Of a DNA stretch of 17,516 bases, positions 2,664-13,303 are shown in pieces. The notes below the pieces were generated by a model. That model saw only the letters and a list, made by a program, of their open reading frames with translations. It ran no database searches and was not told the origin of the DNA. The DNA comes from a virus. The stretch is from the UHGV virus genome UHGV-1979868; one strand, written 5' to 3'. Numbering within the stretch: the stretch's first letter is position 1; the number at the start of each line of letters is the position of its first letter. A program made the position numbers and the translations under genes.

Positions 2664-3567
2664 TCGCCCTCCTGAGAGACGGGATTTACGTGCATCCAGT
2701 GCATCACGCATGACGGTGATCGCATCGGTACTGTTAACAAGTTCATCAGCCAGTCCGGCATCAATGGCCTCCTGACCGCTGTACACTGCAGCCTCGGTAT
2801 CCAGCACAGCCTGCACGGACAGGCCGGTATATGCCGACACCTTCTGCGCAAACATCCGGCGGGTTGCATCCATCCGGGACTGCAGTGTTTCCCGGACGTC
2901 ATCTGGTAGATGGCTGTAGGGGTTGCCATCCACCTTATGGCTGCCGCTGTAAATCAGCGTGATTTCCACGCCCTGTTTCTCCAGCGCAGCGCCGTAATTA
3001 CTGTGAGCCATCATGACGCCGATGGAGCCTGTCCGGGCGGTCTGCGTGACCAGACGCCGGGAGGCGGCGCTGGCAAGCAGCTGACCTGCACTGCAGTTCA
3101 TGTCGTTGGCCAGCGCCCATACCGGTTTTATGTCACGCACACGGGCAATGATGTCAGCGCAGTCAAATGCCCCCGCCACCATCCCGCCTGGCGTGTCCAT
3201 ATCGAGCAGAATGCCGTCCACCATCGGGTCGCTGGCAGCCTGTTGCAGACGGGCGATAATGCTGTTGTAACCGGTCATCCCCGAATACGGCTGCAGCGCC
3301 CGCGTCCGGCTGACCAGCGTGCCGGACACCGGCAGCACGGCGATGCCGTTCATGACCTGATAACTGCGGGCCTGTCGTGGCCCGTCATCATTACCGGATA
3401 ACGCCAGCGTCTCGGGTGCCTCTCCGGCAGTCAGGCTGTCACCGGACACCGCATCCGTCAGGCGGCTGATCCCCAGCTGGCCTGCAAGCGCACAAAAGAA
3501 AACCCGCGCATAGGCGGGTTCAAGCATCAGCGGCTCATTAAAAGCCATACTGGCAATATGCGGGAGA

Positions 3568-3587: not shown

Positions 3588-7268
<3,681 letters not shown>

Positions 7269-7294
<26 letters not shown>

Positions 7295-7814
7295 TCAGCA
7301 ACCCCGGTATCAGTTCATCCAGCGCGGCTGCTTTGTTCATGGCTTTGATGATATCCCGTTTCAGGAAATCAACATGTCGGTTTTCCAGTTCCGGAAAACG
7401 CCGCTGCACCGACAGGGGGATCCCGTCGAGAATACTGGCAATTTCACCTGCGATCCGCGACAGCACGAAAGTACAGAATGCGGTTTCCACCACTTCAGCG
7501 GAGTCTCTGGCATTCTTCAGTTCCTGTGCGTCGGCCTGCGCACGCGTAAGTCGATGGCGTTCGTACTCAATAGTCCCTGGCTGGAGATCTGCCTCGCTGG
7601 CCTGCCGCAGTTCTTCAACTTCCCGGCGCAGCTTTTCGTTCTCAATTTCAGCATCCCTTTCGGCATACCATCTTATAACGGCGGCAGAGTCATAAAGCAC
7701 CTCATTACCCTTGCCACCGCCTCGCAGAACGGGCATTCCCTGTTCCTGCCAGTTCTGAATGGTACGGATACTCGCACCGAAAATGTCAGCCAGCTGCTTT
7801 TTGTTGACTTCCAT
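7269..7814 (-). CDS. Nu1: Terminase small subunit Nu1
   Basis: 181-aa ORF MEVNKKQLADIFGASIRTIQNWQEQGMPVLRGGGKGNEVLYDSAAVIRWYAERDAE..., recognisably lambda gpNu1, and the first gene after cos. Confidence 0.95.
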
Positions 7815-7829
7815 TGTTCATTCCACGGC

Positions 7830-8040
7830 CAAAAACAGAGAAAGGAAACGACAGAGGCCCAAAAGCTCGTTTTCAGCACCTGTCGTTTCCTTTCTTTTCA
7901 GGGGGTATTTTAAATAAAAACATTAAGTTACGACGAAGAAGAACGGAAATGCCTTAAACCGGAAAATTTTCATAAATAGCGAAAACCCGCGAGGTCGCCG
8001 CCCCGTAACCTGTCGGATCGCCGGAAAGGACCCGCAAAAT
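7830..8040 (-). other. cos site (cosB with Nu1-binding repeats, cosN, cosQ), lambda type
   Basis: The plus strand carries aggtcgccgccc at 7992-8003, the reverse complement of the lambda cohesive end GGGCGGCGACCT. It is flanked by gaaaacccgcgaggtcgccgccccgtaacctgtcggatcgccggaaaggacccgcaaaat, which matches lambda cosN/cosQ as I recall it. A perfect inverted repeat aaaggaaacgacag (7842-7855) / ctgtcgtttccttt (7880-7893) and a third related copy near 7933-7952 correspond to the gpNu1 R sites. Confidence 0.8.
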
Positions 8041-8202
8041 GATAATAATTATCATCTGCATGTCACAACGTGCATCTACGCCATCAAACCACGTCAAATA
8101 ATCAATTATGACGCAGATATCGTATTAATTGATCTGCATCAACTTAACGTAAAAACAACTTCAGACAATACAAATCAGCGACACTGAATACGGGACAACC
8201 TC

Positions 8203-8436
8203 ATGTCAACGAAGAACAGAACCCGCAGAACAACAACCCGCAACATCCGCTTTCCTAACCAAATGATTGAACAAATTAACATCGCTCTTGAGCAAAAAGG
8301 GTCCGGGAATTTCTCAGCCTGGGTCATTGAAGCCTGCCGCCGGAGACTGTGCTCAGAAAAAAGAGTTTCTTCTGAAGCAAACAAAGAAAAGAGTGACATT
8401 ACTGAATTGCTCAGAAAACAGGTCAGACCAGATTGA
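8203..8436 (+). CDS. Small ribbon-helix-helix (CopG/Arc-like) DNA-binding protein, 77 aa; positional equivalent of K-12 Qin ynfO
   Basis: ORF MSTKNRTRRTTTRNIRFPNQMIEQINIALEQKGSGNFSAWVIEACRRRL...: an Arg-rich N-terminus, then a beta-strand-like segment (NIRFPNQMIEQ) and helices typical of an RHH fold. The family assignment is by eye only. The ATG at 8203 has only a weak SD. Confidence 0.55.
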   Translation: MSTKNRTRRTTTRNIRFPNQMIEQINIALEQKGSGNFSAWVIEACRRRLCSEKRVSSEANKEKSDITELLRKQVRPD

Positions 8437-8493
8437 AGCAATTTAGATAATCGTGCAGACTACGCCCCCTCATATCACATGGAAGGTTTATCT

Positions 8494-8904
8494 ATGGATC
8501 AGGTAGTCATTTTTAAACAAATATTTGATAAAGTTCGAAACGATTTAAACTATCAATGGTTTTATTCTGAGCTAAAACGTCACAATGTCTCACATTACAT
8601 TTACTATTTAGCCACAGAGAATGTTCATATTGTATTAAAAAATGATAATACAGTGTTATTAAAGGGCCTAAAAAACATTGTGTCTGTCAAATTTTCAAAG
8701 GATAGGCATCTTATAGAAACGACCTCTAATAAGCTGAAATCCAGAGAGATCACATTTCAGGAATACAGAAGAAACCTTGCTAAAGCAGGAGTTTTTCGGT
8801 GGGTTACAAATATCCACGAACAAAAAAGATATTACTATACCTTTGATAATTCATTACTATTTACTGAAAGCATCCAGAAAACTACACAGATCTTACCACG
8901 CTAA
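8494..8904 (+). CDS. ydfO: Uncharacterised prophage protein, DUF1398-like, 136 aa
   Basis: The track ORF starts at 8479, but the second ATG at 8494 has the SD GGAAGG 7 nt upstream; the product is [31 protein letters not shown].... Size and position (second gene after ynfO, beside cos) fit Qin ydfO; the symbol is from positional memory, not sequence recognition. Confidence 0.6.
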
Positions 8905-8912
8905 ACCATAAC

Positions 8913-8952
8913 GTCCGGCTTCTCTCACTCCTGAGCCGGACTGCATTGGTTT
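8913..8952 (+). terminator. Possible stem-loop terminator after the ydfO-like gene
   Basis: 8-bp stem gtccggct / agccggac (8913-8920 and 8934-8941) with a 13-nt loop, followed by a weak T-rich run tgcattggttt. Confidence 0.3.
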
Positions 8953-9055
8953 AATAAAAACCATCAACAATTGTGATTTAGATATTCGGAACCATTCAAA
9001 TATAACAAAACCCCGTAAAAACGAGGTTTATGGATAAATTTTATTATTGAATACA

Positions 9056-9232
9056 TCAGATTAAATTAATCTTGACATCATAGCTTTCAAGACCCGTCAT
9101 TTTTTCCCGTGCGGTAAACTGAATACTGGTAACTTCTTTCCCGGTCTTTTTCTTAAGTTCAATAATTTTTTTTGTTATATATTCAGAAATATCTGCTTCT
9201 GCTTTTGTTTTTAAGTTTTCAATATTCATCAT
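9056..9232 (-). CDS. gnsB: GnsA/GnsB-family small protein, 58 aa
   Basis: Found by hand, since it is below the ORF-track size cutoff. Minus-strand ATGATG at 9232-9227 preceded by AAGAGGAA; product MMNIENLKTKAEADISEYITKKIIELKKKTGKEVTSIQFTAREKMTGLESYDVKINLI, whose C-terminal half closely matches the GnsA/GnsB sequence as I remember it. Confidence 0.7.
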   Translation of the reverse strand: MMNIENLKTKAEADISEYITKKIIELKKKTGKEVTSIQFTAREKMTGLESYDVKINLI

Positions 9233-9400
9233 TTCCTCTTTTAGTCTGTTATGACTTTCCAGTTACACAGTAAGTCGATTATATGGTGCAAACGTGTAAA
9301 AGATAAGATGAAACATCGCAATAATCAACATACGATAGTCTAAATTTTACACAAACAGACAAAGAAAATTTTCCTGAATTATCAATACAATAGCATCAAA

Positions 9401-9696: not shown

Positions 9697-9902
9697 TTCA
9701 TTTTCACTTTTTTAAATCCAACGACAGACGGCTGGCATTTAAGTATTGTGAAATATTATCAAATGTAATCATCATTGATTTACAAAAGATACATTTTGCC
9801 CCGAAAGGATTCATGTCAGAAACATCAAAAGATGATGTTCTATACTGGGAACCATGACAACACGGGCATCTAAAGTGAATATGGTTTGTAATATTGTCTA
9901 CC

Positions 9903-10115
9903 TCAAAGCGCCACTACATGAACAGCGGCAGGACCTTTAGGTCCGTTCTCAATACCAAATTCAACTTCCTGATTCTCAGTTAATGTTTTGAAATCGTTGC
10001 TCTGAATTGCTGAGAAATGGACAAACACATCTTTGCTGCCATCTTTCGGCGTGATGAAACCAAAACCTTTTTCAGGGTTAAACCATTTCACTAAACCAGT
10101 CATTTTGTTAGACAT
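9903..10115 (-). CDS. cspI: Cold-shock protein CspI (CspA family)
   Basis: 70-aa [73 protein letters not shown] with RNP1/RNP2 motifs; matches CspI as I recall it. ATG at 10115 with SD, and a long 5' leader region upstream, typical of csp genes. Confidence 0.9.
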
Positions 10116-10478
10116 AATTATTACCTTTTGAAGAAATTAGCCCTTGGGCAGAATGGTCCGAAAAAAAATATCAGAGAGAAAAACCAACAAGGAAATCTCA
10201 AGAGGTACAAATAATAAAATTATAACAATGACTGCTTCAGATAAATTTGTAACAAACCAGAACACCATTAACGCATGATTAACCACCCATAGCAAGGATT
10301 ACTTTTGTAAAGAAAAACACAGCAATGAAAGAATAGCTTTATTTATTAATAATAACGTGTCATTCTGATTAAGACCTTTTATCTTACCCTTAAGATTTCA
10401 GGAATTTTGGCTCATGGAAGAGTCCTTTTTATTTAAATTTTACATTCCGCGATGTAAATGTTCCGATTTAATATTACC

Positions 10479-11502
<1,024 letters not shown>

Positions 11503-12506: not shown

Positions 12507-12787
12507 GAGATTGTGGTGCTTTTTGTGGGAGTCATCCACTTACGCACTTTGTTTTGCCATGCCAGCAGTTAGCTTCTGCTGTAAAACTATTCATGCAGCA
12601 AACCTGCACTTCACCACAATGGTTAGCATACTTTTCCTGATTAAGATTTTGCCAAATATGCTAGCCATTGTTTCATGTATTGGACCTCCTTACTTTTTAT
12701 TAAAGAGATCCAATATTCACTACTCTGTCCGTATCTCTACTCAGGCATCAGCCTTCTTCGTTATCGTATACAGACGAGCGATGAATT

Positions 12788-13003
12788 TTAATCAGTAATG
12801 ATGACATTTGCTGCTGCAGGACCTTTAGCACCACTCTCTATAGAGAAGGTAACCTTTTGACCTTCAAATAAGGTTCGATAATTATCATTCTGAATCGCAG
12901 AAAAATGCACAAACACATCTTTACTACCATCAACAGGAGAAATAAAGCCGAAACCTTTATCAGCGTTAAACCATTTTACTAAACCAGTCATTTTATTTGA
13001 CAT
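12788..13003 (-). CDS. cspB: Cold-shock protein CspB (CspA family)
   Basis: 71-aa [74 protein letters not shown], matching CspB as I recall it; ATG at 13003 with TAAGGA 7 nt upstream. Confidence 0.9.
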
Positions 13004-13303
13004 TCTACATTCCTTAACTTGAGCCTTTCGGCATAAATGGTTTGCATAACAGAAACGACTTCGTACTTAATTGGAGAGACTCAAAGAAGGAATAAGTGAA
13101 TAACACCTGAAATGAGAACTGCTTTAGTAAACTACTTCGTATATCGTCTGTTCTTCAAACCGACGCAATCATTAACGCATAGTTGAACATATGAAGCAAT
13201 GTTTATTTTAGACATCCAGCCATCTTCAACCCCATCAAAAAACTATAGCTTTCTTCAGGAACGTGTGTATAGTGCGCCAAGTTATCAGTATTAAGGAATT
13301 TTT

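What the first reader, a model, noticed from the sequence alone, without database searches (positions are those of the whole stretch)
8041..8952. RHH-protein + DUF1398-like two-gene cassette on the opposite strand, right beside cos: candidate toxin-antitoxin or defence moron
Between cos and the lysis genes sit two co-oriented plus-strand genes 58 nt apart (8203-8436 and 8494-8904), opposite to every surrounding late gene. They have their own AT-rich upstream region and a downstream stem-loop. The first product looks like a ribbon-helix-helix DNA binder, the fold used by many antitoxins and autorepressors. The second (136 aa, Lys-rich, no TM segment) has no function I know of. A small DNA binder followed by a larger unknown effector, in a moron slot expressed from the repressed prophage, is the layout of many TA and abortive-infection modules. 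I cannot show that it is one.
Basis: partly seen in the sequence, partly recalled or inferred. Interest (0 to 1): 0.5.

Follow-up and report, generated by a model that had tools for sequence, protein, structure and literature searches.

The report
Known prophage genes ynfO and ydfO
The two genes are the already annotated ynfO and ydfO of Qin/lambda-type E. coli prophages, accessory genes of unknown function that turn up independently of each other, so they are unlikely to be a toxin-antitoxin or two-gene defence pair.

Summary
Two plus-strand genes (8203-8436 and 8494-8904, 57 nt apart) lie between cos (cosN 7992-8003) and the lysis genes, opposite to the late operon, and a strong stem-loop follows them. 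They are ynfO (YlcI/YnfO family, Pfam DUF3950) and ydfO (DUF1398, 135/136 identical to the solved structure 2HH8). The DNA is 100% identical to many E. coli chromosomes, and phage lambda carries the same genes.

The toxin-antitoxin/defence reading is not supported. YnfO-type genes occur in 155 phage records and YdfO-type genes in only 43. YnfO stands alone in Stx phages, phage 434 and PICI-like satellites. DUF1398 genes stand alone in other prophages and in non-phage chromosomal sites. In lambda and DLP12 an opposite-strand gene (ybcW) separates the two. The genes also differ in GC content and in divergence from their lambda counterparts. ydfO has its own upstream region, with a published PdhR-binding site. 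Neither protein matches a known toxin or defence family.

Most likely these are two independent accessory genes: a probable ribbon-helix-helix regulator, whose fold I could not prove, and a soluble basic protein of unknown activity. Already known; low interest.

The parts
7992..8003 (-). cosN, the 12-nt cohesive-end sequence GGGCGGCGACCT
   Evidence: Exact single match; 0 expected by chance.
8027..8033 (-). cosQ heptamer GGGTCCT
   Evidence: Read directly from the sequence. It is at the position annotated as cosQ in phage 434, whose sequence aligns here.
8039..8055 (.). Perfect palindrome ATGATAAT-A-ATTATCAT next to cosQ; role unknown (resembles a Fur box from memory)
   Evidence: Inverted repeat I5, 8-nt arms, 100% complementary. 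Conserved in lambda-type phages.
8101..8133 (.). Imperfect inverted repeat upstream of ynfO; candidate operator (inference only)
   Evidence: 13-nt arms, 85% complementary, 7 nt between them.
8203..8436 (+). ynfO: YlcI/YnfO family, DUF3950, 77 aa, pI 10.6. Conserved core is residues 1-49 (basic arm plus a strand-helix-helix pattern); the C-terminal tail is variable
   Evidence: Pfam PF13132 75.6 bits (cut-off 25) and NCBIfam NF041551 36.6 bits (cut-off 30). RefSeq annotation. Core invariant, tails variable. dN/dS about 0.1.
8417..8433 (+). PdhR-box-like palindrome AACAGGTCAGACCAGAT over the last codons of ynfO, 60 nt before the ydfO start
   Evidence: Exact match to the site reported by genomic SELEX in PMC7660256. 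TGGTCTGACC lies 64 nt before the ybcV start in lambda. Homology to ybcW-type loci starts at 8416.
8446..8451 (+). GATAAT, a possible -10 element for a ydfO-specific promoter (inferred)
   Evidence: Read from the sequence; not called by the consensus scan.
8481..8486 (+). Shine-Dalgarno GGAAGG, 7 nt before the ydfO ATG at 8494
   Evidence: Read from the sequence. The 8494 start matches the RefSeq annotation and residue 6 of the 2HH8 chain.
8494..8904 (+). ydfO: DUF1398 protein, 136 aa, basic, soluble
   Evidence: Pfam PF07166 157.7 bits (cut-off 22). 135/136 identical to PDB 2HH8 'Hypothetical protein ydfO'. dN/dS 0.15-0.33.
8913..8941 (+). Stem-loop after ydfO (9-bp stem, 11-nt loop); possible weak terminator
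   Evidence: dG -21.9 kcal/mol, z -5.35; no T-run.

Best explanation
These are two separate accessory genes of the variable region between cos and the lysis cassette of lambdoid prophages. They are neighbours here, not an obligate pair.

Shown: the first is ynfO (YlcI/YnfO, DUF3950) and the second is ydfO (DUF1398, solved structure 2HH8). Both evolve under purifying selection. Each occurs widely without the other.

Inferred: YnfO is a small, very basic Arc/Mnt-like ribbon-helix-helix protein. It would dimerise, bind DNA through its N-terminal arm and beta-ribbon, and act as a transcription regulator, probably a repressor. It is the conserved cos-proximal gene, and its relatives in PICI-like satellites sit divergent from the replication operon, where a repressor gene would be expected.

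Also inferred: ydfO is exchangeable AT-rich cargo with its own control region, a PdhR-bound palindrome and a -10-like element inside or just after the 3' end of ynfO. It is expressed from the prophage in response to host signals. Its biochemical activity is unknown. It is dispensable for lytic growth in lambda.
For: Identity:
- Pfam, NCBIfam, PDB and RefSeq all agree.
- The 7800-9300 segment is 100% identical to many E. coli chromosomes and matches 4844 of 5426 complete genomes.
- Lambda carries cos, a ylcI-like gene, ybcW on the opposite strand, ybcV, then bor.

Independence:
- tblastn against 50,697 phage records finds YnfO in 155 and YdfO in 43.
- YnfO is alone in Stx phage YYZ-2008 (between the HNH/terminase genes and Rz) and in phage 434 (cosQ, DUF3950, bor).
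- None of 80 viral loci fetched with a PICI-type YnfO relative (32 confirmed by my YnfO profile) has a DUF1398 gene within 3 kb.
- A 78%-identical YdfO lies in a ybcW-ydfO-gnsB arrangement with no ynfO (L034; the phage Tritos record L051 looks the same but ends there).
- A distant 177-aa DUF1398 occupies the same Nu1-Rz slot without ynfO.
- Chromosomal DUF1398 genes follow ketoacyl-synthase/ApeP-like biosynthetic genes, with no phage genes and no ynfO.
- In E. coli genomes the ynfO core has 9861 places, up to 12 per genome. Full-length ydfO-like genes are in 3011 genomes.

Different histories:
- Against lambda, dS is 0.08 for ynfO and 0.54 for ydfO. GC is 0.44 against 0.32.
- The homology breakpoint is at 8416.

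Separate control of ydfO:
- The PdhR SELEX site is at 8417-8433. ybcV mRNA is about 10-fold lower in a pdhR mutant (PMC7660256).
- ydfO was induced about 100-fold by an ionic liquid (PMC4077768).

Other:
- Lambda's homologue lambdap78 is non-essential by CRISPRi (PMC10695390).
- Lambda-vir can replace its ybcW-containing version with the Qin version by recombination (bioRxiv 10.64898/2026.09.04.749371).
- No defence or toxin family matches.

Ribbon-helix-helix pattern:
- IRFP strand, helix 19-32, helix from 34, with pLDDT 83-85 over residues 21-50.
- Register-correct but weak alignment to Arc.
- The only Foldseek hit is the ParD2 antitoxin, and it is not significant.
Against: - In sequenced lambda-like phages, 42 of the 43 records with YdfO also appear to have YnfO upstream in the same orientation (cross-reading). 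A functional link within that lineage is therefore not excluded.
- I have no direct evidence for a ynfO promoter, for YnfO binding DNA, or for a ydfO transcription start.
- Overexpressing the paralogue ybcV gave a glycogen-deficient phenotype, in the same table as the toxins hokA and yoeB (PMC2853380).
- TraDIS found too few insertions in ydfO (PMC5821084).
- Both results are compatible with some harmful activity.
Confidence: 0.7

Rival explanations
1. Regulator plus cargo. YnfO is the repressor of a cos-proximal promoter that drives whichever accessory gene lies downstream (ydfO here, bor in phage 434, nothing in some phages). YdfO is a single-gene effector acting on host physiology or on superinfecting phage.
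For: YnfO is the constant element and the downstream gene varies. The two genes share orientation and are 57 nt apart here. PICI-type relatives sit in a regulator-like position. An inverted repeat lies upstream of ynfO.
Against: ydfO keeps its own upstream region when ynfO is absent or when ybcW intervenes. YnfO is often followed by no cargo at all. There is no expression or binding data, and no defence family match.
Confidence: 0.15
2. Type II toxin-antitoxin or abortive-infection pair: YnfO is a ribbon-helix-helix antitoxin and autorepressor, and YdfO is the toxin or effector.
For: A small basic DNA-binder-like gene sits directly upstream of a larger gene of unknown function. The nearest, non-significant, structural hits of the YnfO model include ParD-type antitoxins. 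ybcV overexpression perturbs physiology. TraDIS found few insertions in ydfO.
Against: Each gene occurs widely without the other. An opposite-strand gene separates them in lambda and DLP12. GC, dS and the recombination breakpoint all differ between them. The variable C-terminal tail of YnfO, which is the part that neutralises the toxin in ribbon-helix-helix antitoxins, is not conserved even among alleles next to YdfO. There is no toxin or defence homology. YdfO was produced in quantity for NMR (2HH8).
Confidence: 0.07
3. YnfO has a packaging-related role at cos, for example binding near cosQ, which would explain its fixed position next to the packaging genes in phages with different terminases.
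For: It lies next to cos or the terminase genes in lambda-type and HNH/HK97-type Stx phages. A conserved palindrome sits beside cosQ.
Against: In PICI-like elements the relatives lie in the regulatory/replication region, not next to packaging genes. From established lambda knowledge (my memory, not tested here), about 200 bp of cos suffice for cosmid packaging. Many cos phages lack the gene: only 155 of 50,697 records have it.
Confidence: 0.05

Closest known systems
ynfO-ydfO of the E. coli K-12 Qin cryptic prophage (nohA-ynfO-ydfO-gnsB-ynfN-cspI)
   Same: Same genes in the same order and orientation. YdfO is 135/136 identical to the K-12 protein solved as 2HH8. RefSeq names are ynfO and ydfO.
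   Different: This window has intact-looking terminase and head genes instead of the truncated K-12 Qin. Function is as unknown here as in K-12.
Right end of phage lambda, and DLP12: cos, ylcI-like ORF, ybcW (lambdap79), ybcV (lambdap78), bor
   Same: The homologous slot. The YnfO core is 98% identical and YdfO/YbcV 79% identical. The cos-to-ynfO spacer is about 97% identical. A PdhR-like box precedes the DUF1398 gene.
   Different: Lambda has the opposite-strand ybcW between the two genes and bor after them. Its YnfO tail differs (64 aa). This window has gnsB/cspI genes instead of bor.
P22 Arc and Mnt repressors (ribbon-helix-helix)
   Same: Small size, an N-terminal basic arm, the [IL]R[FW]P strand motif, then two helices with a glycine turn. 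hhalign puts YnfO 9-27 on Arc 6-24 in the expected register.
   Different: The similarity is not statistically significant (probability 2-10%). No ant-type target gene is nearby. Dimerisation and DNA binding are untested.
Type II toxin-antitoxin modules with ribbon-helix-helix antitoxins (RelBE, ParDE)
   Same: A small putative ribbon-helix-helix gene lies upstream of a larger gene. The only Foldseek hit of the YnfO model is ParD2 (E 9.5).
   Different: The partners are not conserved together, a gene can be inserted between them, the downstream gene has its own control region, there is no toxin homology, and the YnfO C-terminal tail is not conserved.
Lambda bor and lom (classic prophage accessory genes, 'morons')
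   Same: Same genomic slot as bor, opposite to the late operon, with lower GC than the flanking genes. Present or absent among otherwise similar phages.
   Different: Bor is a lipoprotein with a known serum-resistance role. YdfO has no signal peptide or membrane segment and no known role.

Membership tests
YlcI/YnfO family (Pfam DUF3950, NCBIfam NF041551) | Score above the curated cut-offs of the family models | tested here: met
   PF13132 75.6 bits against 25; NF041551 36.6 bits against 30. PHROG 949, E 6e-34.
DUF1398 (Pfam PF07166; YdfO/YbcV/YcgX) | Score above the curated cut-off over the full-length domain, and identity to the solved family member | tested here: met
   157.7 bits against 22, profile positions 1-119 of 119. 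135/136 identical to 2HH8.
Ribbon-helix-helix superfamily (Arc/MetJ/CopG) | N-terminal strand with alternating pattern, followed by two helices joined by a glycine-containing turn | tested here: inconclusive
Ribbon-helix-helix superfamily (Arc/MetJ/CopG) | Obligate homodimer with an intermolecular two-stranded sheet that binds DNA | not testable with these tools
   Only monomer prediction was available.
Type II toxin-antitoxin system | The two genes are inherited together as a conserved pair | tested here: not met
   YnfO is in 155 phage records and YdfO in 43. Each occurs alone in several contexts.
Type II toxin-antitoxin system | One tightly coupled operon (overlapping or closely abutting genes under one autoregulated promoter) | tested here: not met
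   The gap is 57 nt here. ybcW lies on the opposite strand between the genes in lambda, DLP12 and O157. ydfO has its own conserved upstream region with a PdhR site. The transcripts themselves were not measured.
Type II toxin-antitoxin system | The downstream protein belongs to a toxin family or is toxic, and is neutralised by its partner | not testable with these tools
   No homology to toxin families in Pfam or PADLOC. Toxicity and rescue need experiments.
Known anti-phage defence systems (PADLOC-DB 2.0) | A match to a model of a known or candidate defence protein | tested here: not met
   0 families for YnfO, YdfO, GnsB and YnfN at E <= 1. Among 22 DUF1398 members there are only scattered matches at E >= 0.001 to unrelated models.
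Prophage 'moron' (accessory gene unit; definition of Juhala et al. 2000, from memory) | Present or absent between genes that are adjacent in related phages, with deviant base composition | tested here: met
   ydfO is absent in phage 434 and Stx phages but present in lambda and Qin at the same slot. GC is 0.32 against 0.53-0.54 in the terminase genes.
Prophage 'moron' (accessory gene unit; definition of Juhala et al. 2000, from memory) | Own promoter and terminator, and expression from the repressed prophage | tested here: inconclusive
   There is a stem-loop after ydfO, a -10-like GATAAT and a PdhR site. K-12 ydfO mRNA is detectable and inducible (PMC4077768). No transcription start was mapped, and the consensus scan found no plus-strand promoter.

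The most novel reading that the evidence does not exclude
YnfO-family proteins could be a so far unrecognised class of small Arc-like switches. They are shared by lambdoid phages, where they sit next to cos, and by PICI-like satellites, where they sit divergent from the replication operon. On this reading they would set the expression of accessory or replication genes during lysogeny. DUF1398 would be a single-gene effector, wired to the host pyruvate sensor PdhR, that changes host physiology or excludes other phages. That would assign functions to two uncharacterised genes present in phage lambda itself.
Probability: 0.1. Interest if true: 0.55.

Novelty: already known. Interest (0 to 1): 0.18.

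Why it matters
As it stands this is ordinary. The genes are annotated in E. coli K-12 and in lambda, one has a solved structure, and they are present in most E. coli genomes.

The useful result is negative. The 'small DNA binder plus unknown effector' layout arises here from mosaic recombination in a variable slot, and the toxin-antitoxin reading fails a co-occurrence test.

What remains of interest is that both families have no known function, although they sit in the best-studied phage and in thousands of genomes. YnfO relatives also occupy a regulator-like position in phage satellites.

Tried and rejected

3. hhalign of YnfO alignments against Arc, Mnt and CopG. The register was right but the scores were weak.

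4. A 233-aa 'DUF3950+DUF1398 fusion protein' with 761 database members looked like evidence that the two genes work together. The DNA has an in-frame TGA that was translated as Trp, so this is a gene-calling artefact. The shared reading frame is not conserved in L011 or L038.

5. The genome-contig scan with the YdfO alignment mostly returned lambda control-DNA contamination in unrelated taxa, not distant relatives.

6. The literature claim that YdfO overexpression raises oxidative-stress resistance (PMC4077768) traces to Wang 2010, which reports yfdO of prophage CPS-53, not ydfO. I rejected it as evidence.

7. The TraDIS 'essential' call for ydfO was not used as evidence of function. The gene is prophage-borne, has paralogues and is absent from many strains.

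8. A BRO-N/antirepressor association of PICI-type YnfO genes holds in only 17 of 80 loci.

9. Rfam found no known RNA in 7800-9300.

10. Casjens & Hendrix 2015 and Liu et al. 2013 (lambda ribosome profiling) are not held in the library.

Full report
**What is there**

The window is a Qin/lambda-type prophage of E. coli. The ORF list and sequence show 8203-8436(+) (77 aa) and 8494-8904(+) (136 aa), 57 nt apart. They are flanked on the minus strand by Nu1 (7269-7814) and the large terminase (5369-7294) on one side, and by gnsB (9056-9232), cspI (9903-10115) and Rz (10479-10976) on the other.

The lambda cohesive-end sequence GGGCGGCGACCT is at 7992-8003 on the minus strand. The cosQ heptamer is at 8027-8033. 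So the first gene starts 199 nt from cosN.

The stem-loop after the second gene is real (8913-8941, dG -21.9 kcal/mol, z -5.35), but it lacks a T-run. GC falls from 0.53-0.54 in the terminase genes to 0.41 upstream of the first gene, 0.44 in it and 0.32 in the second.

**Identity**

The first protein scores 75.6 bits on Pfam DUF3950 (cut-off 25) and passes the NCBIfam YlcI/YnfO model. The second scores 157.7 bits on DUF1398 and is 135/136 identical to PDB 2HH8, 'Hypothetical protein ydfO'.

Bases 7800-9300 are 100% identical to many E. coli chromosomes, where RefSeq names the genes nohA, ynfO, ydfO and gnsB. Some match to this segment exists in 4844 of 5426 complete genomes.

Phage lambda carries the same slot: cos, a 64-aa YlcI-like ORF, ybcW (lambdap79) on the opposite strand, ybcV (lambdap78, DUF1398), then bor.

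Both genes are real coding genes under purifying selection. dN/dS is 0.07-0.12 for the YnfO core against a Stx-phage allele at dS 0.7-1.0, and 0.15-0.33 for ydfO.

**Are they a pair?**

This is the test that matters for a toxin-antitoxin or abortive-infection reading, and it fails in both directions.

- Across 50,697 phage records, tblastn finds YnfO-type genes in 155 and YdfO-type genes in 43.
- YnfO stands alone in Stx phage YYZ-2008, between an HNH/terminase module of a different type and Rz.
- YnfO stands alone in phage 434, where bor follows directly.
- I fetched 80 viral loci with a PICI-type YnfO relative. My YnfO profile confirmed 32 of them, and none of the 80 has a DUF1398 gene within 3 kb.
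- A 78%-identical YdfO lies in a ybcW-ydfO-gnsB arrangement, next to a different small terminase and with no ynfO, in locus L034. The phage Tritos record looks the same, but it ends close to the gene, so its upstream side is not fully covered.
- A distant 177-aa DUF1398 occupies the same Nu1-to-Rz slot in other E. coli prophages, where only the cos segment is shared with this window.
- DUF1398 genes also sit in plain chromosomal contexts, after ketoacyl-synthase/ApeP-like biosynthetic genes, in Pseudocitrobacter and another enterobacterial contig.
- K-12 has a third paralogue, ycgX, next to bluR (PMC3509220).
- In complete E. coli genomes the ynfO core has 9861 places, up to 12 per genome and 8 in one O157:H7 strain. 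Full-length ydfO-like genes occur in 3011 genomes.

**Different histories and separate control**

Against lambda, ynfO has dS 0.08 and ydfO 0.54, and their GC differs by 13 points. Homology to the ybcW-type loci begins exactly at 8416, inside the 3' end of ynfO. Consistent with a joint there, residues 1-49 of YnfO are almost invariant while the C-terminal tails differ from allele to allele.

The segment that travels with ydfO contains AACAGGTCAGACCAGAT (8417-8433). This is the site a genomic SELEX study reported as bound by the pyruvate sensor PdhR. The same study found ybcV and ybcW mRNA about 10-fold lower in a pdhR mutant (PMC7660256). A matching TGGTCTGACC lies 64 nt before ybcV in lambda.

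A GATAAT at 8446-8451 and a good Shine-Dalgarno at 8481-8486 follow. I infer that ydfO is its own transcription unit; no start site has been mapped. K-12 ydfO mRNA was induced about 100-fold by an imidazolium ionic liquid (PMC4077768) and changed on DicC overexpression.

**Is the first protein a ribbon-helix-helix protein?**

The sequence has the pattern: a basic arm, an NIRFP strand, a helix, a glycine turn and a second helix. The strand motif resembles Arc (LRWP) and Mnt (FRMP).

- The AlphaFold monomer gives helices 19-32 and 34 onward, with pLDDT 83-85 over residues 21-50.
- hhalign aligns YnfO 9-27 to Arc 6-24 in the expected register, but at only 2-10% probability.
- Foldseek's single hit is the ParD2 antitoxin at E 9.5.

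I rate the fold as likely (about 0.7) but not shown.

In PICI-like elements the YnfO relatives are divergent from the primase/replication operon across an intergenic region of about 400 bp. That is where a repressor gene would be expected, and it supports a regulator role.

**What the second protein does**

This stays open. It is basic (pI 9.75), soluble and without membrane segments. It has no relative in the PDB other than itself, even with a diverse profile, and no defence-family match. It belongs to a small family: 272 clusters at 50% identity among 1.84 billion proteins. My model of it was too poor to use.

Lambda's homologue is dispensable for plaque formation by CRISPRi (PMC10695390). 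Lambda-vir can swap its version for the Qin version by recombination when selected to lose ybcW (bioRxiv 10.64898/2026.09.04.749371).

Two weak hints of a physiological effect exist. ybcV overexpression gives a glycogen-deficient phenotype, in a table that also holds the toxins hokA and yoeB. TraDIS found few insertions in ydfO.

A published statement that YdfO raises oxidative-stress resistance is a mix-up with yfdO.

**Verdict**

The most likely reading (0.7) is two independent accessory genes brought side by side by mosaic recombination in the cos-lysis variable slot. One is a conserved cos-proximal small regulator, probably ribbon-helix-helix. The other is an exchangeable AT-rich cargo gene with its own host-wired control region.

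- A regulator-cargo relationship is possible (0.15).
- A true toxin-antitoxin or abortive-infection pair is unlikely (0.07).
- A packaging role for YnfO is unlikely (0.05).

The genes are already known and annotated, so interest is low. What remains is that neither family has a known function.

Noticed in passing
window 8434-8436 and 8437-8493: ynfO and ydfO are in the same reading frame, separated by a single TGA with no other stop. Gene callers that read TGA as Trp produce a 233-aa 'DUF3950+DUF1398' protein with 761 database members. This is an artefact, and the shared frame is not kept in related loci.
   Followed up: yes
literature (PMC4077768, PMC3105296, PMC8711792): The statement that YdfO overexpression increases oxidative-stress resistance cites Wang et al. 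2010. That paper reports yfdK, yfdO and yfdS of prophage CPS-53 and never mentions ydfO. A later paper (PMC8711792) cites PMC4077768 as its reference for ydfO.
   Followed up: yes
window 8417-8433; L002 3681-3690: A PdhR-box-like palindrome reported by genomic SELEX sits 60-64 nt upstream of the DUF1398 start codon, both here and in lambda. This links a lambda-family accessory gene to the host pyruvate sensor.
   Followed up: partly
loci L014-L045: Many 'genomes' of unrelated taxa (Kitasatospora, Brevibacillus, Flavobacterium, Pedobacter, Cohnella and others) contain contigs of about 3.5 kb or 48 kb that carry lambda's right-end genes (ylcI-like plus ybcV at lambda-level identity). This looks like spiked-in lambda control DNA left in assemblies. 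It also inflates the protein databases with error-laden YlcI/YbcV variants.
   Followed up: partly
L053 2501-2701; L063-L093 around 3001-3200; L094-L142 around 3001-3180: PICI-like satellites encode YnfO-family proteins divergent from their primase operon. In L053 and L052 the match lies antisense to annotated genes, which suggests mis-annotation. A second small family shares the N-terminal MATKAVNAKS arm but has a different strand-helix-helix core and no Pfam match.
   Followed up: partly
window 8039-8055: A perfect palindrome, ATGATAAT-A-ATTATCAT, lies immediately next to cosQ and is conserved in lambda-type phages. It resembles a Fur box (from memory). A minus-strand promoter-like match overlaps it (8066-8039).
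   Followed up: no
window 9056-9232 (-): The convergent neighbour gnsB matches Pfam GnsAB_toxin (E 3e-35). It is the only gene near the finding that carries a toxin-antitoxin label. Its own terminator-like hairpin is at 9008-9029 (-).
   Followed up: no
window 9876-10261 (-) and 12772-13164 (-): Two full-length matches to the cspA thermoregulator RNA (Rfam RF01766, 113 and 159 bits). The first spans cspI and its leader. The second lies roughly where cspB sits in the related annotated locus L001. This prophage carries cold-shock gene cassettes with their RNA thermosensors.
   Followed up: no
L001 6570-8495: In the otherwise identical chromosome NZ_CP027462 the large terminase gene is annotated as a pseudogene with an internal stop. 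In this window it reads as an intact 641-aa ORF (5369-7294).
   Followed up: no
L046 (E. coli CP178306, 3293-4795): A third copy of the cassette in one E. coli genome is 94% identical in DNA, but the ynfO, ydfO and gnsB matches are broken into pieces in several frames. It appears to be a decaying pseudogene copy.
   Followed up: no
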